From an uncultured Chloroflexia bacterium (GTDB lineage Bacteria > Chloroflexota > Chloroflexia > Thermomicrobiales > UBA6265): a DNA stretch of 64,000 nt. Below, piece after piece: positions 7,482-58,908 of the stretch. The stretch covers positions 756,105-820,104 of the forward strand of contig CAVVQC010000005.1 in NCBI GenBank assembly GCA_963750275.1. Reading direction: 5' to 3'. The translations under genes were made by a program, and so were the position numbers. Under the pieces are notes generated by a model. The model worked only from the letters and a program-made list of their open reading frames with translations, was not told where the DNA came from and searched no databases. Every line of letters begins with the position of its first letter. Position 1 is the first letter of the stretch.

Positions 7482-9627
7482 TTACTCGTCCCCGCCAGAT
7501 ACCGGCAAATTCGCCTCGATACGTGTCCCGGCAGGATCGAGCGGCTCGGCCGCAAATGCGCCCCCAAGCTCCAACGCGCGCTCTCGCATCGATTGCAATC
7601 CAACGCCGGAGATACGGTCGGTCGCAATACCACCCCCATCGTCCTCGATCGTCAACCGGATTCCCGCTGAGTCATGCGCGATACGTATCACGCACCGAGT
7701 TGCATTGGCATGCCGCACGACATTCGTCAACGCCTCGTCGACGATATGGTAAATGGCCACTTCGACTGCTGCCGGCAGGTCACCCAGTTGATCCGGAGCG
7801 TCGAGCGTCACGAGCAAGCGACGCTCCGACATTGGACGCTCCTTCACCAAGATTGACGGTCGAAATCCGATTCTGCAGGGCGCCGATCAACCCCAGATCG
7901 TCGAGCGCTGCCGGCCGCAATCCTTGCACCAACCGGCGAATATCGGCGATGGCGGTGCGCAGCTCCTGTTGCAGCTCGGTTGCCTGTTCCACGGCCGCAT
8001 CCGGATCGCTGCGGATGGTTACCTTCATTGCCCCAGCCTGCAAGGTGAGCGCGGCCAGCTGCGCACCGAGCCCATCGTGCAAATCGCGGCGCAAACGGCG
8101 GCGTTCTTCTTCCCGGGCGGTCACGATCCGCTCGCGCGAAAGCTGCAAGTCATTCGTAAGGCGCACGTTGTGCGCCACCACCCCGATCTGGCGCGCCAGA
8201 TCGTCCAAAAGGCGCAGATCGGTCGAATCGAACTCGCGCGAGCCGGAACGCGGGGAGACGATCAACTCTCCCACCGGTTGCGATTGATAGATCAGCGGGA
8301 TTGGCACCTCGGTGGCGCCAGGTGTTCCGGCTACCGCGACCGGCAGCACCCCCGATTCGAGCGTAATCGCCGCATAGGGGAGGCGCAATGCTTCGGTCAG
8401 GGTGCGCACCGTCGCCCGCAAAGCTTCCACCGGCTGAATCGTTTCGGACAGATCGCCAGCCAGCTTGCGCAGCACCTCATAGGGATCGTCCCGATCGCCA
8501 TAGAAGAGGCGATTGACACCATGCTGTACGCGTGCCCGCATGGGCTGAAAAAGCACTGCGGTCAGGCCCAGTGCGAACAGCGTGAGCACGTTCGATCGAT
8601 CATGCTCGAAGCTCGATCCGATACCAAAAACAATGCCAACATAGGCAGCAATCACGAGCACCGTCATCAGAAGCCAGACCAGCGTACGGCTGATGACGAG
8701 ATCGATATCGAAGAGCCGGTACCGCAGAATCGCGATGGTCAGGCAGATGGGAAAAGCCAGCGAAAAGACCGGCACCGCAATCGTGAAGCCGAGCATAGCC
8801 AGCACTCCTCTGGGAGAGTCGTCGATATTCCGCATCATGGCGTCACCGATCAGAAATGCGGAAAGGGCGAGCACCACGCCAATAGCGCCCAATTTCATCT
8901 GCTGCCGCTGGACCGGGCTCGACTTCCAACGATACCGATAGATGAGCGTGCCAAGACCCAATACCAACAGCAGCAGATCGCTACCTGCCTCCACTACCCG
9001 GCCCAGGCCCTGGCTTGGGTCTCGTCCTGGCGCAGCGATAAACGAGCACACCATGATCATGTAGAACGCCGCCGGAATGGCGACCCATCGCGGCACAAAG
9101 GTGCCGGTCGGAAAGAGCAACGGCAGCAGAAATAGACTGGTAATGTTGAGCGCCGTCAGCATGATGCCAACGGCGAGCCAGACCGGCTCGCCGGCCAACT
9201 GCCGGTGCAGATCAGGGGGATAAACCGCGCCAATACCGGCAACGAAGGTCAGGGAGATGTAGAACGCAAACCAGTCGGTTCCCCGTCGTTTCCAAAGCAG
9301 GATCGCGCTCAGGACCACGGCCACCAGCGACTGGAGGAGCATTCCCCCCGCGACGACGATGGACAATGAACGCTCGGAGATCCCCAGACCCGCAAGATTC
9401 GACCGGAAACCAGCCGCCTCGGTCGCAGACATATCGGTCATGCCGAGAATATCGTCGACCTGCAGCGTGCTGGTCCGGACGAACATTGCCACCGCCAACA
9501 AGAGCACAATGAGCCAGAACATCATCTGCCCGCGACGAACCCGCGCGGGATCGAGTCCCACCAAAGCTCGCTGCCGGAATGATGCGCCGAATTGCATCGG
9601 TTGCGTCCATTCGCCTGTTGTTGGCAC
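7482..9627 (-). pseudogene. membrane sensor histidine kinase (HisKA_3 + HATPase_c), split by one frameshift as assembled
   Basis: ORF 7780..9627 has multiple TM helices, a GAF-like segment and the dimerisation/His block EERRRLRRDLHDGLGAQLAAL. The ATPase domain (LPAAVEVAIYHIVDEALTNVVRHA, IEDDGGGI, GVGLQSMRERA) is in overlapping ORF 7482..7850 in another frame. The shift lies somewhere around 7800-7870. It sits immediately upstream of the response regulator. Confidence 0.85.
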
Positions 9628-38784: not shown

Positions 38785-41561
38785 TTATTGCGATGGTAGG
38801 TTGGTCGTGCCTGTTGCCGATACCGCTTCTTCAGGACGCCTGCGAGGCAGCAGCTCATCGAGAACGAAGTTGAAGTTGCCCCTTGTGCTGGGATCTGCCT
38901 TTCGCAGTCGATCCAGGAACAATCCGATGCCGGCTGCTCCAGATGCGAAATCGGCACTTTCTCGCATCGCCTGTTCGCCGGGGAAGCCAGTACCCTCCAA
39001 CGCCCCGATCTGAAACAGCAGCACGCCTTCGGCCGTTTGCCACGCACCAGCACGATGTGTTTCGTTTCCGGTGTACTCCCAGATATCGATGAGAGCATTC
39101 CCAAGTCCCGCGAGTCCATGGAAGAGCTGTGGCATGACCGCGTACTTGTGGCTCACATTGGCAGCTAATGGATCGAGCCATTTCTCAAGGCTGGGATCCC
39201 TTCGGACAGCCAGATAGCGAACCAATGTCGTGATGACTCCGGCCGTACCCGCATCCCAATAGCACCTAGGCGTCTGATTGAAATCTTCCCCATGTACGCT
39301 CACAATAGCGGGAAAGCCGACGAACGCACTATCCTGCCAAACCCCATGAGCCAAGTCAAAGTCTAGCGCTTGCCGCCCGGTGTCAATTGGCTGCTGCAAA
39401 CCTGTCGCCAAGTGGAGGTAGAGCAAAAAAAGCGCCACGCCGCTGCTCCCATAAGCGTAGCCATGCGCCACGGCACCTTCTTGCCCTGGCCAGTGAACCC
39501 CATGGTCGCTTCGCACCGCTGAAGAGATCAGATGGTCGCCCACGCCGACCGCGTCGTCGAGGAACTCATCTCCGTGTCCATTCATCCACATCTTCAGGCA
39601 GGCAAGTCCGTAACCAGCACATCCGTGGAGCACGTCGTGGGATCGAAAAAGCAGCTCATGGTTTCGGACAGAGCGCATGATGTTTAAAGCAACCTCAGGA
39701 AGACCGATTTCACCGGCCACCCAAGCCACTCCTGCTTGCCCCATGTACAGCCCAGGCGGATAAAGTTCGTTGGTAACTTGCCGGCGGGTTAGCCACGCCG
39801 ACAACCCTTCGGGAACCTCGCCAGTCAGTTGATAAATCGCATGCAGGACACCGGCAGTGCCATACGCTACTGATAGCGGATTCGTCTCGAACACGGTCAG
39901 GTCTCCCGGACAGAGGCGGTCCTCACGCTCTACGTCGGCGGTGCCGATGAGGTAATCCGCGACTGACCTGACGATGCGATCCAAATCCGCATGCAATACA
40001 TATCGTCCGTTACGCGTCAATCGCTCTCCCGCTGGTGTGGCGAGCCGCGGGATACGCGCCACCAATGAGCCAGGACGGCACGCGAGCTCCGAAATCGAGC
40101 GCTTGACCGACTCGGGGAAGACGCAGAAGGCTCGGTCAGCAGGCCATCCACCAGGGAAATTAACTCGTCTGAAAGTCCAAGGTCCTGCTTGAGTTCCTCG
40201 AGAAAGCCGGGCCTCGCCGTTGGATACAGATGGGTGAACCCGGTGGCCAGCATGATGCTCCCGAATATGAGGGATCCGAGCGCGTAGAAGTCGTTCGTCC
40301 GGTCGCAGATTCCTGAGAGCAGCGTGCCTGGAGACGTCACGCCGGGGGTATTGAGCCCGACCTGTGGGTCCTGCCCTTCTTCGACTGCGGACTCGAGATC
40401 GACGATGCATACCTTGTCAGAGCCGGAGACCAGTACATTCGTGAAGGACAAATCGCCAAGCACGATGTTTAGCTCATGCGCTGAAACAATGGCTTGAGCG
40501 ATCTGCAGCCACAGCTGACACATCGTTTCGAAGTACGCGTTCAGCTCGCTCCTAGAGGTTCGTCCATGATAGAGCGGATGCGTCCCAATGCTGAACTTGC
40601 CAATGTGGTCGCCCCTCACGAATTCCTCCGCGAGGAATCGTGCCCACCTTCGCGAAAGAACTCGATTGGCTTGACAAAGTAGCCGGTATCGGCCAGCCGG
40701 CCAAGCAAGCGCCACTCCTTCTCAAGAAGCTCGATTGAATCCAGGCCGAAACGTCCGACCTCGATATGAGGCCGTGACTCTTTATGACCACATCGAGCCT
40801 GACACTTTATCTCGTGCCAGGTAGACGCCGCCACGATTGGAAAATCGAAGCGCTGACGTTACGGAGAAACGTCCGTTGCCAAGATCTACTTCAGCTTTGA
40901 CGGCTGTTGTCGCCTTAGTCGGTACTGGAAACGGATCCTCTGCCCAATCCGGTGGACTCCAGAATGGAAATCGAATATCAGGGACAAGTTCGCCAGTGGG
41001 CGAGCAAATAACTTGACTTTGTGTTCCATCGACCTGCAGCACCGTTCTGGAAAGAAAGCCTCCATACCGATAGTAGACCGTTGACGAACCCGGCCAAGGT
41101 CGATCTGAAAGAATGTACGGGCCGGCGAAATGCTCAAGTGATTCTGCCAGGGCCTGTCCCATGGCAAGGAATTGCGACTGGCTTGCCGGGTATATCGTAA
41201 CGAGCTTGCCGCTCGAGCCGCGTTGCCACATTTTGCTATTTGTTGCGGCAGCGAGCGTGGGGTCCAGAAGGAATTTGAAGGGAGCATTCTGCTCGAAGAG
41301 CAGCGGAAAGACTCGCCCCAGCGCTTCTACCGCATCTTTCGTGAGAACAGAAACATGGATCTTCCAGCCTTGATCCGGGAGCGCTACGTCGTGGGGAGGG
41401 ACCGCAGAATACCAGATTCCACTTCGCTTGAGCTGCCAGCTACCAGGGGCAAGCGCTGAAAATACCGCCAGAAACTCTGAGCTTGGCTGATATCGAGACG
41501 GGCTTTCGAACCATCTGGGGTGATATTGGCTATAAAGGTAAAGACGCTCCCAACTATGCAT
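38785..41561 (-). pseudogene. lanKC: class III lanthipeptide synthetase (LanKC: lyase + Ser/Thr kinase-like + Zn-ligand-less LanC-like cyclase), reading frame broken 3-4 times as assembled
   Basis: Lyase part: ORF 40782..41561 (PDQGWKIHVS, VTIYP, YYRYGGF). Kinase part: spread over ORFs 40552..40791 / 40616..40834 / 40017..40715 (VVIKESRPHIE, LEKEWRLLGRL, FLAEEFVRG, NIVLGDLSFTNVLV, VCIVDLESA). Cyclase part: ORF 38785..40410 (GTAGVLHA, GQAGVAW, LHGCAGYG, YGSSGVALFL, YWDAGTAGV, FHGLAGLG, SGAAGIGLFL). Frame changes occur at ~40781-40797, ~40645-40653 and ~40114-40117 (cccc run). Confidence 0.85.
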
Positions 41562-41649
41562 GCGTGCTAGCCTTTCCCACTCGTGGAGGATCAGCAGGAG
41601 CGTGATCGTCCCTGACCGATTCTCGCCATCGTGGAAACGACTAGCACGC
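41562..41649 (-). promoter_or_regulatory. 9-bp inverted repeat able to pair the sequence abutting the lanKC start codon with an upstream segment (possible translational/processing control)
   Basis: GCGTGCTAG (41562-41570) is the exact reverse complement of CTAGCACGC (41641-41649). In the mRNA the 3' arm ends directly at the AUG and follows the GGGAAAGG RBS. The ~70-nt loop makes this weak evidence. Confidence 0.25.
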
Positions 41650-41708
41650 GAAACCCACCGTTGCGAAAACTAACTGAATGTGGTCATCCGAACCGTCTCG
41701 TCAGATGT

Positions 41709-41930
41709 TTACGCACAGCTATGGTGGTCACAGGACGTGACGCTGACGACAGCAATTTCGTCGTCGAATGTTGCGCCTCCTGCGGAGGGACGGCCGCTCA
41801 GGCGGTCCTGCAGGAGACGTTGCAGATCCAGCACAAGCGGCGGCATGCCAGCTGGCTGGTCTTTAGGGGAGAGAGGCTCTCGCGCTTCTCGACCGGGGGT
41901 TGCGCCACCTTGGGAAGACGTAGACATCAT
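41709..41930 (-). CDS. lanA1: class III lanthipeptide precursor peptide (copy 1)
   Basis: 73 aa: MMSTSSQGGATPGREAREPLSPKDQPAGMPPLVLDLQRLLQDRLSGRPSAGGATFDDEIAVVSVTSCDHHSCA. An AAAGGAG RBS is present, with an LDLQ-type leader motif and a Ser/Thr/Cys C-terminal core. It is co-directional with and 147 nt upstream of lanKC. Confidence 0.8.
   Translation of the reverse strand: MMSTSSQGGATPGREAREPLSPKDQPAGMPPLVLDLQRLLQDRLSGRPSAGGATFDDEIAVVSVTSCDHHSCA
41731..41927 (-). repeat. tandem duplication unit A (lanA1 coding DNA)
   Basis: It aligns base-for-base with 42175-42371 at an offset of 444 nt. By eye, the ~135 nt encoding the leader differ at one position, while the ~60 nt encoding the core carry about a dozen differences. 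Confidence 0.85.
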
Positions 41931-42130
41931 CGGCTCCTTTGATTTGGGCGGCGTTGCGCAATGTGAAGGATGCTGATCGGCTTCATCGGTGCGAATACTC
42001 TATCGACACCGAGAGGGTCAAATGCTCAAAAAATCGAGTTCAACTAATGCAGAGGGACGTGGCTGCCCATTGGTTCGAAGCCGATCAACTCAGGCGGTAG
42101 AGGGGTTATCCATCGATCGGATTTTGGAGA

Positions 42131-42161
42131 CTGTCAGGCCGAATTGATTCGGTTACTGACA
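42131..42161 (-). terminator. stem-loop overlapping the lanA2 stop codon (attenuator/partial terminator candidate)
   Basis: The mRNA reads TGTCAG-TAA-CCGAAT-ca-ATTCGG-c-CTGACA: two 6-bp stems whose 5' arm is the last two codons plus the stop. No U-tract follows. Confidence 0.4.
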
Positions 42162-42371
42162 ACTGTGATGAGAGCAGGACGTGACGCTGACGACGGCGAC
42201 TTCGTCACCAAATGTAGTGCCTCCTGCCGAGGGACGGCCGCTCAGGCGGTCCTGCAGGAGACGTTGCAGATCCAGCACAAGCGGCGGTATGCCAGCTGGC
42301 TGGTCTTTAGGGGAGAGAGGCTCTCGCGCTTCTCGACCGGGGGTTGCGCCACCTTGGGAAGACGTAGACAT
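42153..42371 (-). CDS. lanA2: class III lanthipeptide precursor peptide (copy 2)
   Basis: 72 aa from ATG 42371 (GGAAGGAG RBS 7 nt upstream): MSTSSQGGATPGREAREPLSPKDQPAGIPPLVLDLQRLLQDRLSGRPSAGGTTFGDEVAVVSVTSCSHHSCQ. The ORF-track start at 42407 adds 12 unlikely residues. Confidence 0.8.
   Translation of the reverse strand: MSTSSQGGATPGREAREPLSPKDQPAGIPPLVLDLQRLLQDRLSGRPSAGGTTFGDEVAVVSVTSCSHHSCQ
42175..42371 (-). repeat. tandem duplication unit B (lanA2 coding DNA)
   Basis: Partner of 41731-41927; see that entry. Confidence 0.85.
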
Positions 42372-42411
42372 TATTGACTCCTTCCAGGATAGAGTGGTGG
42401 GCTTCAATCAC

Positions 42412-42440
42412 AGCTTATGTCCACAATAGTCCAAAGTCAA
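42412..42440 (-). promoter_or_regulatory. candidate promoter of the lanA2-lanA1-lanKC unit
   Basis: The minus strand reads TTGACT (42435-42440), a 17-nt spacer, then TAAGCT (42412-42417), ~40 nt upstream of the lanA2 ATG. Confidence 0.35.
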
Positions 42441-42543
42441 TAGCGGCCGAAAAGCTCGACACTCCGGAGATCGGAGATTCCCTATCCCCTCGCTGAATGC
42501 TCAATTAAACGAATAGGTTGGGCCGAACGCTGTTACTCGCATC

Positions 42544-43179
42544 CTAGAACGACGGAGGCGTAATCGCGGCAATCACGATCGCAGGCGCCCCACTCCTGTT
42601 CCCCGCCCGGTGCGGCCGCGACGCATCGATCGTGATGCAATCACCCGCCTGCAAGACAAATTCCGCCCCATCCACCCAGAAGTGCATCTCCCCCTGGATC
42701 ACCACCATCTGTTCTTCCCCCGGATGGGTAAACGGCGCCAACGGTCCCTCCACCCCCGGCCCGAACTCGACCCAGATGAATTCGATCTGATGCCGCAAAT
42801 CGGGACTCATCAGCTCATAGGTCAATGTCGAATTGACCCCCAGCTTCTTGCGCTGATCGGCGCGCACCACCACCGGTTGCTGGCCGGGTTCATCCTCCAC
42901 CAGCTCGCCCTGAAAAAAGGTGCCGATCGGCACCTCCAGTGCCCGCGCCACCGACCAGAGCACATCCAGCGACGGGCTGGACAAACCTCGCTCCACCTGA
43001 CTGATCAAGCTGGTCGACACCCCACACGCCTTCGCCAGCGCCACCGTGCTCATCCGCTGTTCCTGCCGTAATCCCCGGATGATCCCGCCCAGATCGCGCA
43101 GCCGATCCTCCCGCGTTTCAGGGATTCCATCTGTTGTCGTCACTTGGCTGGCGTTCGACATCGCGCTGCCCGTTCCCAA
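42544..43179 (-). CDS. XRE-family transcriptional regulator with C-terminal cupin domain
   Basis: HTH_3: LRQEQRMSTVALAKACGVSTSLISQVERG. Cupin_2: HPGEEQMVVIQGEMHFWVDG..GDCITIDASRPHR. The start is TTG 43179 or ATG 43161. It is divergent from the aminotransferase operon. Confidence 0.85.
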   Translation of the reverse strand: MGTGSAMSNASQVTTTDGIPETREDRLRDLGGIIRGLRQEQRMSTVALAKACGVSTSLISQVERGLSSPSLDVLWSVARALEVPIGTFFQGELVEDEPGQQPVVVRADQRKKLGVNSTLTYELMSPDLRHQIEFIWVEFGPGVEGPLAPFTHPGEEQMVVIQGEMHFWVDGAEFVLQAGDCITIDASRPHRAGNRSGAPAIVIAAITPPSF

Positions 43180-43347
43180 CGTCGGAAAGACTTTGCCTTG
43201 TCAGCCCCTGGCATCGAACCTGAGAACGCAAGAGTCTCGCAATTGACAACCACACTGTCAGTTCATACACTCAGACTGTAATCCGCACCACGTCAATCCA
43301 CAACCCATATGGTTCTTCGACCCGGTAACCCGCCAGGAGCCTCGGCA

Positions 43348-44673
43348 ATGACCGCCACATCCACTGTTACGTCAGATCAGCTTTTCGAGCAGGCGCAAAG
43401 CGTGCTAGCCGCCGGGGTTTCAGCCGGAATGCGGGTCAACCCCTATCTCGGCAAACCCCTCTTCATCGAACGTGGCGAAGGCGCCTACCTCTACGATGTC
43501 GACGGTCGCCGCCTGATCGACTTCAACATGTCGAACGGTGCGGCGCTGCTGGGACACGACCATCCGGCGGTCAAGGAAGCGGTTATGCACGGCGTCGAGC
43601 TCGGCATCATCTGTGCTGCCGAAACGCCCTTCCATGAACAGCTTGCCGCGCGCATGGTCGAGATCATTCCCGCCGCCGAACGAGTGCGCTTTTCCAGCGT
43701 CGGCACCGAAGCCACCGTGGTCGCCCTGCGCGTCGCCCGCGCCGCCACCGGACGCAGCAAGTACCTGAAGTTCGACGGCCATTTTCACGGCTTGGCCGAG
43801 CAATGGCTCTTCAAACGATCAGATCCCTTCGACCAGAACAGCCCGATCGTTCCCAGCTCAGACGGCGTGCCGGCGCATCTCGCCAGCGACATCGTCATGG
43901 TCCCCTGGAACGATGTCGAGGCCTTCGAAGCTGCCATGAAAACGCACGGTGCCGAGCTTGCGGCGGTTTTTTGCGAACCGATCCATTACAACGCCGGCTG
44001 CATCCCACCTGCTCCCGGCTTCCTGGAGCTGCTACGGGAGCGCACCCGCGAGCACGGCGTGATCCTCGTCTTCGACGAAGTTCTCTCCGGCTTCCGCACC
44101 AGTGCCGGCGGCGTTTCGGCTACCTACGGCGTCACGCCCGACCTCACCACCCACGCCAAGGCACTCGCGAACGGCTTGCCGCTCTCGTCGATCTCTGGCC
44201 GTGCCGATCTGATGGCCGAGCTGGTTCCAACCGGTGGAGCCGCCCATAGCGGAACCTACTCCGGCCACCTGCTCAGTGTGCTGGCTGCCCTGGCAACCCT
44301 GGATATCCTGACCGTGCCCGGTGCCTACGACGAGATCAACGCCCGCGCCGACCGGTTCTATGGCCAGATGCAAGAGGTCTTCGACCGCAACGGGATTCCC
44401 GTAAAGGTCCAGGGCAAGGGTGCACGCTTTGGCCTCTACTTCGGTCGCACCGAGCCAGTCTCCACCTGGACCGACGCCTTCGAACACGATCATGTCATGA
44501 ACCGCGCTTTCGTCCAGCAATGCTGGGAACGCGGCGTCACTTTCCACGGCTACACCCAGCAGGGCCCTCCGGGCCACGCGGGCTTTTCGCTGGCGCACAC
44601 CGACGCCGATCTCGATGAATCGTTGAACGTTTTCGATGCCGTGGCCGCCAACCTGGCTGCGGGACGGATGTAA
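43348..44673 (+). CDS. class III (GSA-aminomutase-like) PLP-dependent aminotransferase
   Basis: Start ATG 43348 (AGGAG RBS). Blocks: LFIERGEGAYLYDVDGRRLIDF, VILVFDEVLSGFR, and the PLP-Lys region TPDLTTHAKALANGLPLS. Confidence 0.85.
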   Translation: MTATSTVTSDQLFEQAQSVLAAGVSAGMRVNPYLGKPLFIERGEGAYLYDVDGRRLIDFNMSNGAALLGHDHPAVKEAVMHGVELGIICAAETPFHEQLAARMVEIIPAAERVRFSSVGTEATVVALRVARAATGRSKYLKFDGHFHGLAEQWLFKRSDPFDQNSPIVPSSDGVPAHLASDIVMVPWNDVEAFEAAMKTHGAELAAVFCEPIHYNAGCIPPAPGFLELLRERTREHGVILVFDEVLSGFRTSAGGVSATYGVTPDLTTHAKALANGLPLSSISGRADLMAELVPTGGAAHSGTYSGHLLSVLAALATLDILTVPGAYDEINARADRFYGQMQEVFDRNGIPVKVQGKGARFGLYFGRTEPVSTWTDAFEHDHVMNRAFVQQCWERGVTFHGYTQQGPPGHAGFSLAHTDADLDESLNVFDAVAANLAAGRM

Positions 44674-44707
44674 ATCGTCGCCAAGCACAGCATCAGGTAG
44701 GAACGCC

Positions 44708-46243
44708 ATGCGGGTCGCAATCGCCGAGCTGAAACAGGAAACCAATACCTTCGTTCCCCGCCTCACCACCATGGCGGACTTCGAGGCATGGCACTACTGG
44801 ACCGGCCCCGACCTGGTCGACGGTCTCGGCGGCACCAATTCCGAGATCGACGGCTTCCTCAACGTTCTGACCGCAGCCGGTATCGAACCGGTACCCATCC
44901 TCGCCACCTTCGCCATGTCTGGCGGAAAAGTCGAGGACGCAACCTACGATCGGCTGCTCGGTGAATTGCTCGCCGGTATCGCCGATGCCGGACCACTCGA
45001 TGGCGTCCTCATTGCCCTCCACGGCGCCATGGTCACCGAAAGCAACGACAGCCCCGACGCCAACACCCTAAACGCCATCCGCGAGCTGGTCGGGCCCGAT
45101 ATCCCCGTCGTTGCCACCTACGATTTGCATGCCAACCTGACCGCCCGCATGGCCGAATACGCCGATGCGCTGGTCGGGTTCAAAACCTCGCCTCATATCG
45201 ACCAACGCGATACCGGCGAGCGCGGCGCCCGGGTCATGACCGCCATCCTGCAACAGGGCGCGAAACCAACCATGGCCTTCGTCAAGATCCCCATGGTCGT
45301 TCCCGCCTCCACGCATATCCATCACCTGCCGGGGCCATTCAAACGCCTGCAGGACGCCACCAAAGAACTGGAAAAGGAACCTGGCGTCCTCTCTGCCAAT
45401 GTCGCCGCGGTACAACCCTGGCTCGACATCGACGAGATGGGCTTCGCCACCGTAGTCGTCACCGATGACGATCCCAAGCGTGCCAAGACCCTCGCCTGCG
45501 ATCTCGCCAAAGCCTGCTGGCACGAACGCGACGCCTTCATGGAACTCGAACTGGTGCCGATCGCCGAAGCGATCCAGCTCGCTCTCGCGGAACCGAGCGG
45601 TCCTGTCGTCCTCTCCGATTGCGCCGACGGCACCGGTGCTGGATCACCCGGTGACGCCACCGCGGTCATCGCCGCGCTCCTGGAAGCGAACCCGGACAAA
45701 CCGGCCTTCGTTTTCGTGCGCGATGCCGAAAGCGCCGCAACCGCCATCGCTGCCGGAACAGGCGCGACCGTCACACTCTCCGTCGGTGCCAAGCTCGACA
45801 ACATCTTCAACCAACCAGTAGAGCTCACCGGTACGGTCGAGTTCGCCGGTCCGGCCTCGTTCCGCTTCGGCGGCGAGGGGTATACCGGCGTCGAGCAGGA
45901 CATGGGCCCAAGCGCGGTCGTGCGCGCCGGCAATGTGTTCGTGCTGATCGTGAGCACCTCGGTGATGACCGTCGATCCGGAGCTCTACCGCGCCGTCGGT
46001 CTCGAGCCAAAGGAAGCGCAGATCGTGGTGGTCAAATCGGCCATCCAATTCCGTGCCGGCTACCCATTCGCCCGGCGCAGCATCATGCTCGACAGTCCCG
46101 GCATGAGCAGCGATCACATCGTCTCGCTCCCATGGGACAAGGTCCCGCGCCCTATCTTCCCGCTCGATCCCGAAATGTCTTTCACCTGTCAGCCACAACT
46201 CTTTAGCAGGCAATCGGAGGTGACGAAAACCCAAAACCCGTAG
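44708..46243 (+). CDS. M81-family metallopeptidase (MlrC/microcystinase-C-like)
   Basis: MRVAIAELKQETNTFVP.. is the typical MlrC N-terminus (DUF1485-type), with an MlrC_C-like C-half. The true start is ATG 44708, inside ORF 44636..46243. Confidence 0.75.
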   Translation: MRVAIAELKQETNTFVPRLTTMADFEAWHYWTGPDLVDGLGGTNSEIDGFLNVLTAAGIEPVPILATFAMSGGKVEDATYDRLLGELLAGIADAGPLDGVLIALHGAMVTESNDSPDANTLNAIRELVGPDIPVVATYDLHANLTARMAEYADALVGFKTSPHIDQRDTGERGARVMTAILQQGAKPTMAFVKIPMVVPASTHIHHLPGPFKRLQDATKELEKEPGVLSANVAAVQPWLDIDEMGFATVVVTDDDPKRAKTLACDLAKACWHERDAFMELELVPIAEAIQLALAEPSGPVVLSDCADGTGAGSPGDATAVIAALLEANPDKPAFVFVRDAESAATAIAAGTGATVTLSVGAKLDNIFNQPVELTGTVEFAGPASFRFGGEGYTGVEQDMGPSAVVRAGNVFVLIVSTSVMTVDPELYRAVGLEPKEAQIVVVKSAIQFRAGYPFARRSIMLDSPGMSSDHIVSLPWDKVPRPIFPLDPEMSFTCQPQLFSRQSEVTKTQNP

Positions 46244-48114: not shown

Positions 48115-49042
48115 ATGACCGTTATCACCCCAGAGCTCACCCAATCCCAATCCCCGCCACCGGTGCTCAAACAGAGTCACCGCGGCGAGAAGATCGGCTC
48201 TGCGCTCTTTCTTGCCCCCGCGGTTGCCTTTCTCCTGCTCACCTCGGTCTATCCGCTGATCTATTCCCTCTGGCTCAGCTTCCACTCCTGGAACATGACC
48301 ATCCCGAACAGCCAACCAGTCTGGATCGGAACCCGCAACTACGAACGCCTCTGGGACGATCCCGATTTCTGGAACGCCATCAAGGTCACGCTCATCTTCG
48401 TCACCGTCGCGGTTACGGTCGAGTTCATCTTCGGGATGGGACTTGCTTTGCTCGCGACCAGCCGCATCCGGGCCATGGGCTGGATCCGCACCATCATGCT
48501 CTTTCCGCTCATGCTCGCCCCGGTCGGTTGCCGGGGTGCTCTGGCGCACCCTCTTCCAATCGAGCTACGGCGTCATCAATTGGGCGATCGGACTGGTCGG
48601 CATCCCTCCACAAGAGTGGCTCGGCTCCCCCACCCAGGCGTTACCGGCGGTCATTACGGTCGAGGTCTGGCAAAACCTCCCGGTCGTCACCTTCATCCTG
48701 GCGGCGGGTATCCAGTCACTTCCGGTCGATCTCTACAAGGCCGCGCAAGTCGACGGCGCCTCCTCCTGGCAAATCTTCCGTCGCATCACCCTGCCACTCC
48801 TGAAACCGGTCATCCTGGTGCTTCTGCTGCTGCGCATCATGGACGCCTTCAAGGTCTTCGACATCGTTTTCACCATGACCTACGGCGGACCCGGGCAAAC
48901 CACTGAGCTCATGTCGATGCTCATCTACAAGACCGGTTTGCGCTTCTTCCAGATCGGACAGGCCAGCGCCATGTCCTGGGTCTTCCTGATCGCGATCTTC
49001 ATCATGTCGCTCTTCTTCATCCGGCGATTGGACAAGGAATGA
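48115..49042 (+). pseudogene. ABC transporter permease (MalF-like), one frameshift as assembled
   Basis: ORF 48115..48906 carries TM1-3 (..IMLFPLMLAPV). ORF 48443..49042 carries the rest (VAGVLWRTLFQSSYGVINW.., EAA loop YKAAQVDGASSWQIFRRITLPLL). The junction requires deleting one G in gtcGgttgcc (~48526). Confidence 0.85.
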
Positions 49043-57874: not shown

Positions 57875-57904
57875 GCAGACGAAACTCCGCCAAACAATCT
57901 CGAG

Positions 57905-58050
57905 TTGATGGGATATCAGATCACCAGGATAGACTCCATCACGCGAGAAGGCATGATCTTCACAGACGCGTATGGCGAGCAATCGTGTCCTGCCGGGCGC
58001 GCTGCATCGCCGAGTGATCGGCACGCGGACTCGCCTGCCCGATGGAGTTG
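57905..58050 (+). pseudogene. possible N-terminal fragment of a sulfatase-family gene
   Basis: (M)GYQITRIDSITREGMIFTDAYGEQSCPAGRAA resembles the sulfatase block ..TPNIDrLAkEGm.FtD.Y.eqSCt.GRaa. Nothing sulfatase-like continues beyond it, and the sequence then runs antisense into the AKR gene. Confidence 0.25.
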
Positions 58051-58051
58051 C

Positions 58052-58908
58052 TCAAACGAAGAGCGGTTCCATCGCCTGCGAACGCACCAGGCCATCCATC
58101 TCCACATCGCTTGGGCGCGTGCCGAATCGCTCGGCGGCGTCGATGACCTTTGGCAGCAAGTTCACATCGCTGGCGGTGTTGAGGAAGACCTGCTCGTTCC
58201 CCAATACCCACTGCGCAGCCAGGTCGATCGAATCCTGATCCACCAGCGGCTTGTACCAGGTAGTCGTCGTCTGCGGATCATCGCCCCACGGGGCACGGGT
58301 GATCCCCTTGATCGTCTGCACTGCCACCTTCCGCTCGGCGCAGACCCGCGACAGCTCATCGAAATCGGCCGCGTACTCCGGGTTCTGCATGAGAATGTAG
58401 CTATACGGAAGCAGCACCGAATCGAAATCGAACCGCTCCAGCGAGCGCGATGCATTCGTGCAATCGGCACGCCATGCCCGGTCACGCCAATAAAGCGCAC
58501 CAATCCCTCGTCCCGCGCACGCACCGCCGCTTCCAACGCGCCGCCCGGTCCCATCGCCGTTTGCCACTCGTCCTCTTCGACCAGATTGTGCAGTTGAATC
58601 AGATCGACCCGATCGGTCCGCAATCGCTCTAGTGATCGCTGGATCTCGTCATACGCCGGACCGGCGCTTCGCTCGCCCGTCTTCGTCGCTAGAAAGAACC
58701 GATCTCGATGCTCCGCCATCCAGGGACCAAGTCGCAATTCCGACTCACCATAGCTGGCTGCCGTGTCGATATGGTTGATTCCCCAACCGAGAATCTGCTC
58801 CATCGTCTGGTCTGCCACGTCCTGTGACACATCTCCGAAAGCTGCTGCCCCGAAAATCACCCGTGTGCTCTCGTGCCCGGTCCGGCCAAATGGTTGTGTT
58901 GCGATCAT
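58052..58908 (-). pseudogene. aldo/keto reductase, one frameshift as assembled
   Basis: ORF 58162..58908 reads [41 protein letters not shown] 58052..58567 continues in another frame: [24 protein letters not shown]...QWVLGNEQV. The junction is near 58465-58475. Confidence 0.8.

What the first reader, a model, noticed from the sequence alone, without database searches (positions are those of the whole stretch)
38785..42440. Compact class III lanthipeptide locus: two LanA precursors plus a LanKC synthetase
Three co-directional minus-strand genes make up the locus: lanA2 (42153-42371), lanA1 (41709-41930) and a ~925-codon synthetase (38785-41561).

Joining the ORF fragments gives the tri-domain order diagnostic of class III/IV lanthipeptide synthetases:
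- An N-terminal pSer/pThr-lyase-like domain (QGWKIHVS).
- A Ser/Thr-kinase-like domain (VVIKESRPH, NIVLGDLSFTNVLV, VCIVDLESA).
- C-terminal LanC-like repeats (GTAGVLHA, LHGCAGYG, YWDAGTAGV, FHGLAGLG, SGAAGIGLFL).

The two Cys zinc ligands of LanC/LanL (WCxG and CHG) read W-D-A-G and F-H-G here. That is the class III (LanKC) signature rather than class IV.

Both small ORFs carry the class III leader motif (PPLVLDLQRLLQD) and end in Ser/Thr/Cys tails. No dedicated protease, exporter or immunity gene is adjacent. From memory only, I do not recognise the core sequence as any characterised class III peptide.
Basis: partly seen in the sequence, partly recalled or inferred. Interest (0 to 1): 0.85.

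Follow-up and report, generated by a model that had tools for sequence, protein, structure and literature searches.

The report
Frameshifted class III lanthipeptide gene cluster
This is a small, horizontally acquired gene cluster for a ring-containing (class III lanthipeptide) peptide, with two precursor genes, a three-domain modifying enzyme and an overlooked flavin enzyme; it is an uncharacterised branch of a well-known kind, and the key enzyme gene is broken by four one-base frameshifts in this sequence.

Summary
On the minus strand lie lanA2 (42153-42371), lanA1 (41709-41927) and a class III synthetase gene, lanKC (38785-41561).

The frame-corrected LanKC (925 aa) scores 716 bits on NCBIfam's class III model (cutoff 575). 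It scores 503 on the class IV model (cutoff 650). Both zinc-ligand cysteines are replaced (WDAG, FHG).

As sequenced, lanKC is not one ORF: four net -1 indels break it, two of them flanking the kinase VVIK lysine. Three other genes in the window are also frameshifted. The repaired LanKC is as well conserved as intact homologues. So assembly indel errors and very recent inactivation cannot be told apart.

An MsnO8-family luciferase-like oxidoreductase (37748-38779, convergent) accompanies lanKC in 13 of 37 related loci and in 0 of 51 distant ones. It also shares the cluster's low GC3.

The precursors are a rare long-leader branch (14 representatives among 1.84 billion proteins) of NCBIfam's lanthi_III_c type. 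Their core is S-x2-S-C-x-H-H-S-C, which fits the general class III Sx2Sx2-5C motif. I found no characterised member.

Verdict: a new member of a known kind, of moderate interest. The host is probably Chloroflexota.

The parts
37748..38779 (+). MsnO8-family luciferase-like (LLM) flavin oxidoreductase. Intact, 343 aa. Convergent with lanKC, with 5 nt between the two stop codons. Proposed tailoring enzyme of the cluster.
   Evidence: TIGR03558 scores 341.6 bits against a cutoff of 167. The closest solved structure is 4US5, a luciferase-like monooxygenase. Orthologues of 50-62% identity lie directly next to lanKC in L002, L007, L008, L009, L010 and L011. GC3 is 0.58, against 0.75-0.81 in the flanking genes.
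38785..41561 (-). lanKC, the class III lanthionine synthetase gene. Conceptual product is 925 aa. The reading frame is broken at four places.
   Evidence: Shown. The joined protein scores 716 bits on NF038151. Intact homologues P0001 (925 aa) and P0002 (922 aa) are 60% and 58% identical.
40797..41561 (-). lanKC segment 1: N-terminal pSer/pThr lyase domain (RamC_N), up to ...ARDKVSG.
   Evidence: PF25816 scores 199.8 bits.
40780..40796 (-). Frameshift sites 1 and 2. Five nt (40792-40796) stand where homologues have six. The run ATAAAG (40780-40783) stands where ATAAA-N-G is needed. These two -1 lesions flank the VVIK strand that carries the kinase lysine.
   Evidence: Ungapped tblastn with P0001 and P0002.
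40640..40783 (-). lanKC segment 2: kinase N-lobe, from KESRPHIEV to FFREGGH.
   Evidence: Matches NF038151 positions 251-298. It is 69% identical to P0001 and P0002.
40638..40639 (-). Frameshift site 3. Two nt (GA) lie between GGH and FLAEEF, where one codon is expected. Net -1.
40128..40637 (-). lanKC segment 3: kinase catalytic core (LGDLSFTNVLV, VCIVDLESA), up to ...GLLTEP.
   Evidence: Pkinase hit. Matches NF038151 positions 299-478. It is 61% identical to P0001.
40108..40127 (-). Frameshift site 4. It lies in the variable kinase-cyclase linker: 8 nt separate TEP from FPESVKRS, a net -1. The exact base is not determinable.
38785..40107 (-). lanKC segment 4: linker plus the LanC-like cyclase domain lacking the zinc-ligand cysteines (YWDAG, LFHG).
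   Evidence: PF05147 scores 79.2 bits. Matches NF038151 positions 483-832.
41562..41649 (-). Long predicted RNA hairpin in the lanA1-lanKC spacer. Its 3' arm covers the GGGAAAGG ribosome-binding region directly before the lanKC ATG. It may act as an attenuator or translational occluder.
   Evidence: The 147-nt spacer folds at -60.8 kcal/mol, z = -3.9, with 0 of 200 shuffles as stable. It is not conserved in sequence or position in other loci.
41709..41927 (-). lanA1 precursor, 72 aa. Leader carries PPLVLDLQRLLQDRL. The core ends ...AVVSVTSCDHHSCA.
   Evidence: Shown. It is identical to P0121 in the public collection.
42153..42371 (-). lanA2 precursor, 72 aa, 92% identical to LanA1. The core ends ...AVVSVTSCSHHSCQ.
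   Evidence: Shown. Its best NCBIfam hit is lanthi_III_c at 15.3 bits, below the cutoff of 27.
41709..42383 (-). Tandem duplication that produced the two precursor genes. The copies are 41709-41939 and 42153-42383, spaced 444 nt apart. The leader-coding part is almost identical, and differences concentrate in the core-coding end.
   Evidence: the repeat finder family D1 shows 90% identity over 231 nt. blastn shows 94% over 209 nt, with 9 of 13 mismatches in the core-coding part.

Best explanation
What it is: a roughly 4.7-kb, horizontally acquired class III lanthipeptide gene cluster (37748-42383). It has four genes: lanA2, lanA1, lanKC and a convergent MsnO8-type luciferase-like flavin oxidoreductase.

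How it would work (inferred from the known class III mechanism):
1. LanKC binds the LxLQ helix of the 72-aa precursors (VLDLQRLL).
2. The kinase domain phosphorylates Ser/Thr of the C-terminal core.
3. The N-terminal lyase domain eliminates phosphate, giving dehydroalanine or dehydrobutyrine.
4. The zinc-free LanC-like domain directs Cys addition. This gives a lanthionine or labionin from S62-x2-S65-x5-C71, and possibly a nested C66-S70 ring.
5. The flavoenzyme then most likely oxidises the peptide (thioether sulfoxide or hydroxyl). Less likely, it reduces a dehydro residue.
6. The leader is removed by a protease encoded elsewhere.

State of the sequence: the lanKC frame is broken by four net -1 indels, so no full-length enzyme can be made from this sequence. 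The repaired protein shows no other sign of decay, and three other genes in the window are also frameshifted. I therefore slightly favour assembly indel errors or very recent lesions (about 0.55) over a long-dead relic.

Shown here: gene identities, class III assignment, frameshift positions, co-occurrence of the oxidoreductase, and the family of precursors.

Inferred only: ring pattern, the role of the oxidoreductase, and whether the frameshifts are real.

The confidence given (0.8) is for the identity and composition of the cluster, not for its functional state.
For: LanKC identity and class:
- Pfam RamC_N, Pkinase and LANC_like all hit the gene pieces.
- NF038151 hits the four pieces at consecutive model positions.
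- The joined protein scores 716 bits on the class III model (cutoff 575) and 503 on the class IV model (cutoff 650).
- The zinc-ligand cysteines read D and F when aligned with two LanL proteins.
- 517 homologues were found. The best intact ones are 56-60% identical and 911-926 aa long.

Precursors:
- Homologous peptides with the same leader (V/I)L(E/D)LQ(K/R)L and the core ...S-x-T-S-C-x-H-H-S-C lie directly upstream of intact lanKC genes in L005 (three copies), L006, L007, L009, L011, L044 and L065.
- A profile of the family finds 14 representatives among 1.84 billion proteins, all with that core.
- The core fits Sx2Sx2-5C, the shared class III motif described in PMC8341899.

Oxidoreductase:
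- TIGR03558 scores 341.6 bits.
- It is present within 4 kb of lanKC in 13 of 37 loci whose LanKC is at least 42% identical to this one, and in 0 of 51 more distant loci. Fisher p = 3e-6.
- It sits tightly convergent with lanKC in five loci, and co-directionally between lanA and lanKC in two Acidobacteriota contigs.
- It shares low GC3 with lanKC and lanA: 0.51-0.71, against 0.75-0.81 in the flanks.
- None of five flanking genes recurs in any homologous locus.
- There is precedent for luciferase-like enzymes in lanthipeptide clusters. LanJC reduces dehydro residues (PMC7268733). A luciferase-like enzyme makes the actagardine sulfoxide, and SolS oxidises a class III labionin (bioRxiv 10.64898/2026.08.26.747419).

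Frameshifts:
- Positions come from ungapped tblastn and peptide coordinates.
- The conceptual LanKC departs at only 2 columns where all 28 homologues agree (F to L and T to S; other sequences show 0-9). It departs at 7 columns that are at least 90% conserved (close relatives show 2-9). It has no in-frame stop codon.
Against: - The gene as sequenced encodes no full-length enzyme.
- Four indels in 2.8 kb, against three in the other 61 kb, is a strong excess: Poisson p = 1e-5, binomial p = 1e-4. A uniform sequencing-error process would not produce this, which points towards real decay of this gene.
- The oxidoreductase is absent from 24 of 37 related loci, including L005/L006, whose precursors are very similar. 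It is therefore not obligatory. Many of those contigs are short.
- No protease, transporter or immunity gene is present.
- No member of this precursor branch has been characterised, so ring pattern and product are untested.
- The precursors score below the cutoff of the only matching NCBIfam precursor model (13-15 bits against 27).
Confidence: 0.8

Rival explanations
1. The cluster is a genuine relic. lanKC is a true pseudogene in the organism, inactivated by frameshifts. The precursor genes and the oxidoreductase are still intact but no longer make a product, unless another LanKC elsewhere in the genome serves them.
For: - There are four independent net -1 lesions in one 2.8-kb gene, two of them bracketing the kinase VVIK lysine.
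- The density is about 40 times that of the rest of the window, p = 1e-5.
- The oxidoreductase (1 kb) and both lanA genes in the same island are not hit, which would be somewhat unexpected if the island simply had a high error rate.
- No protein fragment of this lanKC is in the public protein collection, although its neighbours are. That fits the depositor's annotation treating it as a pseudogene.
Against: - A gene that has collected four indels should also have collected substitutions and stop codons.
- The conceptual protein has no in-frame stop. It departs at only 2 columns where all 28 homologues agree, within the range seen for the other sequences (0-9).
- At least three unrelated genes in the same 64 kb each carry a single frameshift: an ABC permease, an aldo/keto reductase and a sensor kinase. 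That looks like an indel-prone assembly.
Confidence: 0.45
2. The luciferase-like oxidoreductase is only a neighbour and has nothing to do with the peptide. The cluster is just lanA2-lanA1-lanKC.
For: - It is on the opposite strand.
- 24 of 37 related loci show no such gene within the available flanks.
- MsnO8-family enzymes are common in soil bacteria and have many unrelated roles.
Against: - It recurs next to this LanKC clade in at least three phylum-level backgrounds and in two different gene arrangements.
- It never occurs next to the 51 more distant LanKC genes. Fisher p = 3e-6.
- The adjacent copies are each other's close relatives at 54-71% identity, similar to the divergence of the LanKCs.
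- It shares the island's atypical GC3.
Confidence: 0.15
3. The synthetase is a class IV LanL (or another LanC-containing kinase fusion) rather than a class III LanKC.
For: Domain order is the same in both classes. The class IV model also gives a strong score of 503 bits.
Against: - That class IV score is below the model's cutoff of 650, while the class III model scores 716, above its cutoff of 575.
- Both zinc-ligand cysteines that LanL proteins keep are replaced here.
- The closest named homologues are all annotated as class III.
Confidence: 0.02
4. The frameshifts are decoded in vivo by programmed ribosomal frameshifting or transcriptional slippage, so the gene is functional as sequenced.
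For: One site lies in a short A-run (ATAAAG).
Against: - Four separate sites would all have to be recoded.
- None has a recognisable slippery heptamer.
- All 29 aligned relatives encode the protein in a single frame.
Confidence: 0.01

Closest known systems
Class III lanthipeptide systems (LanKC plus LanA; for example labyrinthopeptin/LabKC, curvopeptin/CurKC, SapB/RamC), captured by NCBIfam NF038151
   Same: - The lyase-kinase-cyclase order is the same.
- The cyclase domain lacks the zinc ligands.
- The leader carries the LxLQ motif.
- The core holds a single Sx2Sx2-5C unit (S62-x2-S65-x5-C71).
- There is no clustered protease, which is usual for actinobacterial-type class III clusters.
   Different: - The core is one short C-terminal unit with an extra Cys and Ser nested inside it (S-x2-S-C-x3-S-C) and a conserved His-His pair. 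Most studied class III peptides instead have two adjacent Sx2Sx3C units.
- The leader is long, about 50 residues or more.
- The host is probably Chloroflexota.
- A luciferase-like oxidoreductase is a recurrent partner.
- The lanKC frame is broken here.
NCBIfam NF038160 'lanthi_III_c' class III lanthipeptide precursor family
   Same: The C-terminal pattern is the same (...S-I-S/T-S-C-x-x-x-S-C...). Short-leader relatives found next to LanKCs 40-50% identical to this one reach the model's cutoff, at 29.3 and 28.1 bits against 27.
   Different: The window's precursors and their long-leader relatives score only 12-15 bits. Their leaders are two to three times longer and carry a conserved (D/E)RL extension after LQxLL. 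I found no characterised product for either branch.
Noursin / NorKC (LanKC-Hbt subgroup; PMC10206099)
   Same: It is a class III peptide with one labionin-type motif of non-standard spacing and a functionally essential histidine. It binds copper. The conserved His-His inside the ring region here invites a similar metal-binding idea.
   Different: - Noursin has one Cys, and its Thr-His pair forms histidinobutyrine.
- Here there are two Cys, and the Thr is not invariant (Gly in L007).
- NorKC homologues form their own cluster with a distinct cyclase domain. Relatedness to that cluster was not tested here.
Flavin tailoring enzymes of lanthipeptides: LanJC luciferase-like reductases (birimositide; PMC7268733), the luciferase-like sulfoxide-forming enzyme of actagardine (GarO), and SolS of the class III solabiomycins (bioRxiv 10.64898/2026.08.26.747419)
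   Same: A luciferase-like or flavin-dependent enzyme is encoded beside a lanthipeptide synthetase and acts on the modified core.
   Different: The enzyme here falls in the MsnO8 family (TIGR03558; closest structure 4US5) and matches F420-type LLM families only weakly. In the searchable literature I found no class III cluster described with an MsnO8-type partner.

Membership tests
Class III lanthionine synthetase LanKC (NF038151) | N-terminal phosphoSer/Thr lyase domain (RamC_N) | tested here: met
   PF25816 scores 199.8 bits on the 40782-41561 piece. QGWKIHVS is present.
Class III lanthionine synthetase LanKC (NF038151) | Central Ser/Thr-kinase-like domain with the lysine strand, catalytic loop and Mg-binding Asp | tested here: met
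   The Pkinase hit is below Pfam's own cutoff: 23 bits, E = 6e-5, against 31.7. The domain is instead supported by NF038151 positions 251-478. VVIK, LGDLSFTN and IVDLE are all present, but VVIK lies in its own frame between two frameshifts.
Class III lanthionine synthetase LanKC (NF038151) | C-terminal LanC-like domain lacking the Cys/Cys/His zinc site | tested here: met
   PF05147 scores 79.2 bits. Aligned with two LanL proteins, WCSG corresponds to WDAG and CHG to FHG.
Class III lanthionine synthetase LanKC (NF038151) | Whole-protein score above the curated cutoff, and above the class IV model | tested here: met
   This holds for the conceptual, frame-corrected protein only: 716.2 bits against a cutoff of 575. 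The class IV model scores 503.3 against a cutoff of 650.
Class III lanthionine synthetase LanKC (NF038151) | A single intact open reading frame encoding all three domains | tested here: not met
   There are four net -1 frameshifts, at 40792-40796, 40780-40783, 40638-40639 and about 40108-40127. All 28 aligned homologues are single ORFs.
Class III lanthipeptide precursor (LanA) | Leader with the LxLQ recognition motif | tested here: met
   VLDLQRLL is in both peptides and conserved across the family. The motif is described in PMC7268733.
Class III lanthipeptide precursor (LanA) | Core with an Sx2Sx2-5C motif (PMC8341899) | tested here: met
   S62-V-T-S65-C-x-H-H-S-C71 is Sx2Sx5C in both peptides and in all 14 family representatives.
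Class III lanthipeptide precursor (LanA) | Encoded next to a LanKC gene, also in relatives | tested here: met
   Seen in L005, L006, L007, L009, L011, L044 and L065, and in many shorter-leader relatives.
Class III lanthipeptide precursor (LanA) | Actual dehydration and thioether or labionin formation | not testable with these tools
   This needs co-expression and mass spectrometry or NMR.
NCBIfam NF038160 lanthi_III_c precursor subfamily | Score at or above the curated cutoff of 27 bits | tested here: not met
   Scores are 15.3 bits (84-aa form of LanA2) and 13.4 bits (LanA1). Short-leader relatives reach 28-29 bits. The window's peptides are therefore a divergent sister branch, not members by the model's own rule.
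MsnO8-family LLM class oxidoreductase (TIGR03558) | Score above the curated cutoff over the full model length | tested here: met
   341.6 bits against 166.95, covering model positions 1-323 of 325. The closest solved structure is 4US5, E = 1e-52.
Lanthipeptide tailoring flavoenzyme (LanJC / GarO-like role) | Acts on the LanKC-modified peptide | not testable with these tools
   Only genomic association is shown. No sequence comparison with LanJC, GarO or SolS was possible.

The most novel reading that the evidence does not exclude
The long-leader S-x2-S-C-x-H-H-S-C peptides and their dedicated MsnO8-type flavoenzyme define a class III lanthipeptide subfamily whose product carries chemistry not yet described for class III. 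Two candidates are a compact nested labionin/lanthionine knot bearing a flavin-installed oxidation, and a His-His metal-binding site. The subfamily is spread by horizontal transfer among Chloroflexota, Acidobacteriota and Actinomycetota. In this genome the cluster would be functional, and the four frameshifts would be assembly errors.
Probability: 0.25. Interest if true: 0.6.

Novelty: new member of a known kind. Interest (0 to 1): 0.35.

Why it matters
Class III lanthipeptides are common in genomes, but few have been characterised, almost all from Actinomycetota and Firmicutes.

This locus and its relatives give a concrete genome-mining lead:
- A small, sharply conserved core (S-x2-S-C-x-H-H-S-C).
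- A minimal cluster.
- A recurrent luciferase-like flavoenzyme partner that has not, as far as I could find, been described for class III.

If the partner enzyme modifies the peptide, it would add a tailoring step to this class.

For genome annotation, the case is also a caution. The key gene is frameshifted four times in an assembly that has other frameshifted genes. A pseudogene call here may hide a working cluster, and a cluster call may hide a dead one.

Tried and rejected
- **Tracing the source record.** Exact-protein look-ups for LanA1 and the oxidoreductase found no indexed contig. The collection only says the source is an 824,348-bp NCBI/ENA contig.
- **Searching the GTDB species representatives.** Six exact peptide patterns of this LanKC did not find the source genome, only three distant loci.
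- **Looking for a same-species intact lanKC.** None exists in the 5.8-billion-protein collection; the best hit is 60% identical. So the frameshifts cannot be checked against a sister genome.
- **Literature searches.** Searches for core-sequence fragments (HHSC plus lanthipeptide; six fragments) gave nothing useful. The Walker 2020 supplement is truncated in the library. It showed only Bacteroidetes class I peptides ending ...TSNCVHHSCI.
- **'Class III-c' of the 2026 TherKC paper.** Checked as a possible name for this family and rejected. That group is Thermoactinomyces-type, with STxSNxC cores.
- **Noursin-like histidinobutyrine peptides.** Considered; the motif and the number of Cys differ.
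- **Solabiomycins.** Considered; these are lipolanthine-like with unrelated cores.
- **Consensus promoter and terminator scan of 38500-43400.** Counts were no higher than in shuffled sequence, and no site lay on the cluster's (minus) strand.
- **Conservation of the lanA1-lanKC hairpin.** Not conserved in other loci; several have some hairpin after lanA.
- **Mobile-element boundaries.** No tRNA genes and no flanking repeats mark the island.
- **Programmed frameshifting.** Considered and rejected: four sites, and all homologues are single ORFs.
- **Frameshift contexts.** Three of six contain CGAT/ATCG, a possible methylation-linked basecalling error. The sample is too small, so I draw no conclusion.

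Full report
**What is in the sequence**

On the minus strand between 38785 and 42371 lie two small ORFs and a large disrupted gene.
- lanA2 (42153-42371) and lanA1 (41709-41927, using the second ATG) each encode 72 residues and are 92% identical.
- Each has AGGAG six bases before the ATG.
- Both exact peptides are in the public protein collection, on an 824,348-bp NCBI/ENA contig.
- The two genes are a tandem duplication. The copies are 41709-41939 and 42153-42383, 90% identical over 231 nt.
- In the 209-nt blastn alignment, 9 of 13 mismatches fall in the core-coding end, while the leader-coding part is almost identical.

**The synthetase is class III, not class IV**

The four ORF pieces between 38785 and 41561 hit Pfam RamC_N (199.8 bits), Pkinase and LANC_like (79.2 bits). 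They hit NCBIfam's class III equivalog NF038151 at consecutive model positions 3-245, 251-298, 299-478 and 483-832.

The joined 925-aa protein scores 716 bits on NF038151 (cutoff 575). It scores 503 on the class IV model (cutoff 650).

Aligned with two class IV LanL proteins, the zinc-ligand positions read as follows:
- WCSG in LanL corresponds to WDAG here.
- CHG in LanL corresponds to FHG here.

A search of 5.8 billion proteins found 517 homologues. The best are intact proteins of 911-926 aa, 56-60% identical. They come from metagenomes, a Chloroflexota MAG and many Streptomyces genomes. No near-identical copy exists.

**The gene is broken four times**

Ungapped tblastn with the intact homologues P0001 and P0002, together with peptide coordinates, places the lesions:
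- Site 1: five bases (40792-40796) where six are needed, between ...DKVSG and VVIK.
- Site 2: the run ATAAAG (40780-40783), where VVIK must join ESRPH.
- Site 3: two bases (40638-40639) between ...EGGH and FLAEEF.
- Site 4: eight bases between ...LLTEP and FPESVKRS, in the variable linker (about 40108-40127).

All four are net -1. Sites 1 and 2 bracket the strand that carries the kinase lysine. No full-length LanKC can be translated from this sequence.

**Real pseudogene or assembly error?**

I could not settle this. The evidence points both ways.

For real decay:
- There are four lesions in 2.8 kb against three in the other 61 kb. Poisson p = 1e-5, binomial p = 1e-4.
- The adjacent oxidoreductase and both lanA genes are intact.

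For error or very recent damage:
- At least three unrelated genes in the window each carry one frameshift:
  - An ABC permease, with one extra base at about 48526.
  - An aldo/keto reductase, with five bases at 58445-58449 where six are needed.
  - A NarL-type sensor kinase, whose HATPase part lies in another frame, with the shift between 7824 and 7863.
- The repaired LanKC has no in-frame stop codon.
- In a 29-sequence alignment it departs at only 2 columns where all 28 homologues agree (F to L and T to S); the other sequences show 0-9.
- It departs at 7 columns that are at least 90% conserved, against 2-9 for its close relatives.

A gene old enough as a pseudogene to have collected four indels should show substitutions too. 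I put about 0.55 on indel errors or very recent lesions and 0.45 on a true relic.

**A fourth gene belongs to the cluster**

Five bases beyond the lanKC stop, on the other strand, lies an intact 343-aa gene (37748-38779). It is an MsnO8-family luciferase-like oxidoreductase: TIGR03558 scores 341.6 bits against a cutoff of 167, and the closest solved structure is 4US5.

Its orthologues, 50-62% identical, recur beside lanKC:
- They sit in the same tight convergent position in L007, L008, L009 and L011.
- They sit co-directionally between lanA and lanKC in two Acidobacteriota contigs, L002 and L010.

Over 88 loci with a LanKC:

| LanKC identity to this one | Loci | With such a gene within 4 kb |
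|---|---|---|
| At least 42% | 37 | 13 |
| Below 42% | 51 | 0 |

Fisher p = 3e-6.

The oxidoreductase, lanKC and the lanA genes share low GC3 (0.51-0.71). The flanking genes have 0.75-0.81. GC content dips to 55-59% over roughly 37.5-42.5 kb. None of five flanking genes recurs in any homologous locus.

The unit is therefore a roughly 4.7-kb acquired island of four genes. No tRNA gene or flanking repeat marks its ends.

**The precursor family**

Peptides with the leader (V/I)L(E/D)LQ(K/R)L... and a C-terminal ...(V/I)S(V/I/L)(T/G)SC-x-H-H-SC-x lie upstream of intact LanKC genes in several contigs. A three-sequence profile finds only 14 cluster representatives among 1.84 billion proteins, all with this core. 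This is a lower bound, because small ORFs are often not called.

The core reads S62-x2-S65-C66-x-H-H-S70-C71. It fits the Sx2Sx2-5C motif that a review gives as shared by class III peptides, with two residues always between the serines (PMC8341899). Here the spacing to Cys is five, and a second Cys and Ser are nested inside.

LanKCs 40-50% identical to this one have short-leader precursors (MSxVLNLQKL...SISSCDSxSC...). These reach the cutoff of NCBIfam NF038160, lanthi_III_c. The window's peptides score only 13-15 bits, so they are a divergent long-leader sister branch.

I found no characterised product for either branch in the searchable literature. From memory, I know of none.

**How it most likely works**

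This part is inferred from the established class III mechanism, not shown here.
1. LanKC binds the LxLQ helix of the precursor.
2. It phosphorylates the core Ser/Thr residues.
3. The lyase domain eliminates phosphate, giving dehydro residues.
4. The zinc-free cyclase domain guides Cys71 onto Dha65. The outcome is either protonation (lanthionine) or a second addition to Dha62 (labionin).
5. Cys66 could close a small ring onto Dha70.
6. The conserved His-His would then sit inside the ring system. Noursin shows that a class III peptide can use a ring histidine to bind copper (PMC10206099), so a metal-binding role is conceivable.

The flavoenzyme has precedents in lanthipeptide clusters:
- LanJC luciferase-like reductases make D-Ala (PMC7268733).
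- A luciferase-like enzyme makes the actagardine sulfoxide.
- The flavoenzyme SolS oxidises a class III labionin.

The enzyme here matches the FMN-type MsnO8 family strongly and F420-type families only weakly. I therefore rank oxidation above reduction.

Leader removal would fall to a protease encoded elsewhere, as is usual for actinobacterial class III clusters. The MlrC-like peptidase 2.2 kb away is not conserved with the cluster.

The lanA1-lanKC spacer folds into a long hairpin (41562-41649, z = -3.9) that covers the lanKC ribosome-binding site. It may set the precursor-to-enzyme ratio, but it is not conserved elsewhere.

**Host**

The neighbouring pyridine-nucleotide-disulfide oxidoreductase has named relatives only in Chloroflexota, at 66-69% identity: Herpetosiphonaceae, Thermomicrobiales, Anaerolineae and Ktedonobacteraceae. 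The best named LanKC relative is also from a Chloroflexota MAG. The source genome is not among the GTDB species representatives.

**Verdict**

It is a new, uncharacterised member of a well-known kind. The recurrent flavoenzyme partner is a reasonable lead for new tailoring chemistry. Interest is moderate at 0.35. It is limited by how common class III clusters are and by the broken key gene.

Noticed in passing
window 48115-49042 (+), junction at about 48526: An ABC-transporter permease (BPD_transp_1) in an otherwise intact SBP-permease-permease-ATPase operon is split by a frameshift. ...FPLMLAPV ends at 48525 and VAGVLWRT... starts at 48527. There is one extra base, a G in TCGGTT.
   Followed up: partly
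window about 57900-58908 (-), junction 58445-58449: An aldo/keto reductase is split by a frameshift. Pfam covers only model positions 2-149 of 291 in ORF 58162-58908. The rest (...[17 protein letters not shown]...) continues in another frame. Five bases stand where six are needed.
   Followed up: partly
window about 7485-9627 (-), junction between 7824 and 7863: A NarL-type sensor histidine kinase has its HisKA_3 domain in ORF 7780-9627. Its HATPase_c part (RRLLVTLDAP...ALTNVVRHANA...) lies in a different frame, ending after 7485. This is a third frameshifted gene outside lanKC.
   Followed up: partly
window 41562-41649 (-): There is a long, unusually stable predicted RNA hairpin in the lanA1-lanKC spacer (spacer MFE -60.8 kcal/mol, z = -3.9). 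Its 3' arm ends at the lanKC start codon and covers the ribosome-binding site. Other loci have hairpins after lanA, but not this one.
   Followed up: partly
frameshift contexts at 40792-40796, 40638-40639 and 58445-58449: Three of the six located frameshift sites lie in or beside CGAT/ATCG. This could reflect a motif-linked (methylation?) basecalling error in a long-read assembly, or it could be chance. The sample is too small to judge.
   Followed up: no
PMC7268733 supplement file 2 (not in the window): Class I lanthipeptide precursors of Chryseobacterium (Bacteroidetes) end ...TSARTSNCVHHSCI. This C-terminal S-x-C-x-H-H-S-C pattern is much like the class III core here. It may be a convergent motif.
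   Followed up: no
window 36576-37352 (-): A second luciferase-like gene lies just outside the island. It is an F420-dependent LLM oxidoreductase (TIGR03856, 341 bits) with native codon usage (GC3 0.81). This shows that the host uses F420. It has no counterpart in homologous lanthipeptide loci.
   Followed up: partly
window 42544-43179 (-) and 44636-46243 (+): An XRE/cupin regulator (PuuR-like) lies directly upstream of lanA2 on the same strand, and an MlrC-like (microcystinase C family) peptidase lies 2.2 kb away. Both have native GC3, and neither is found in any homologous locus, so they are probably not part of the cluster.
   Followed up: partly
L044 52-255; L084 3622-3837; L001 9470-9814: Some relatives carry the same S-x2-S-C-x3-S-C unit followed by long C-terminal tails (for example ...TSCDHHSCNPNCGGGHLEDTSPV...). 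The unit is therefore not always C-terminal.
   Followed up: no
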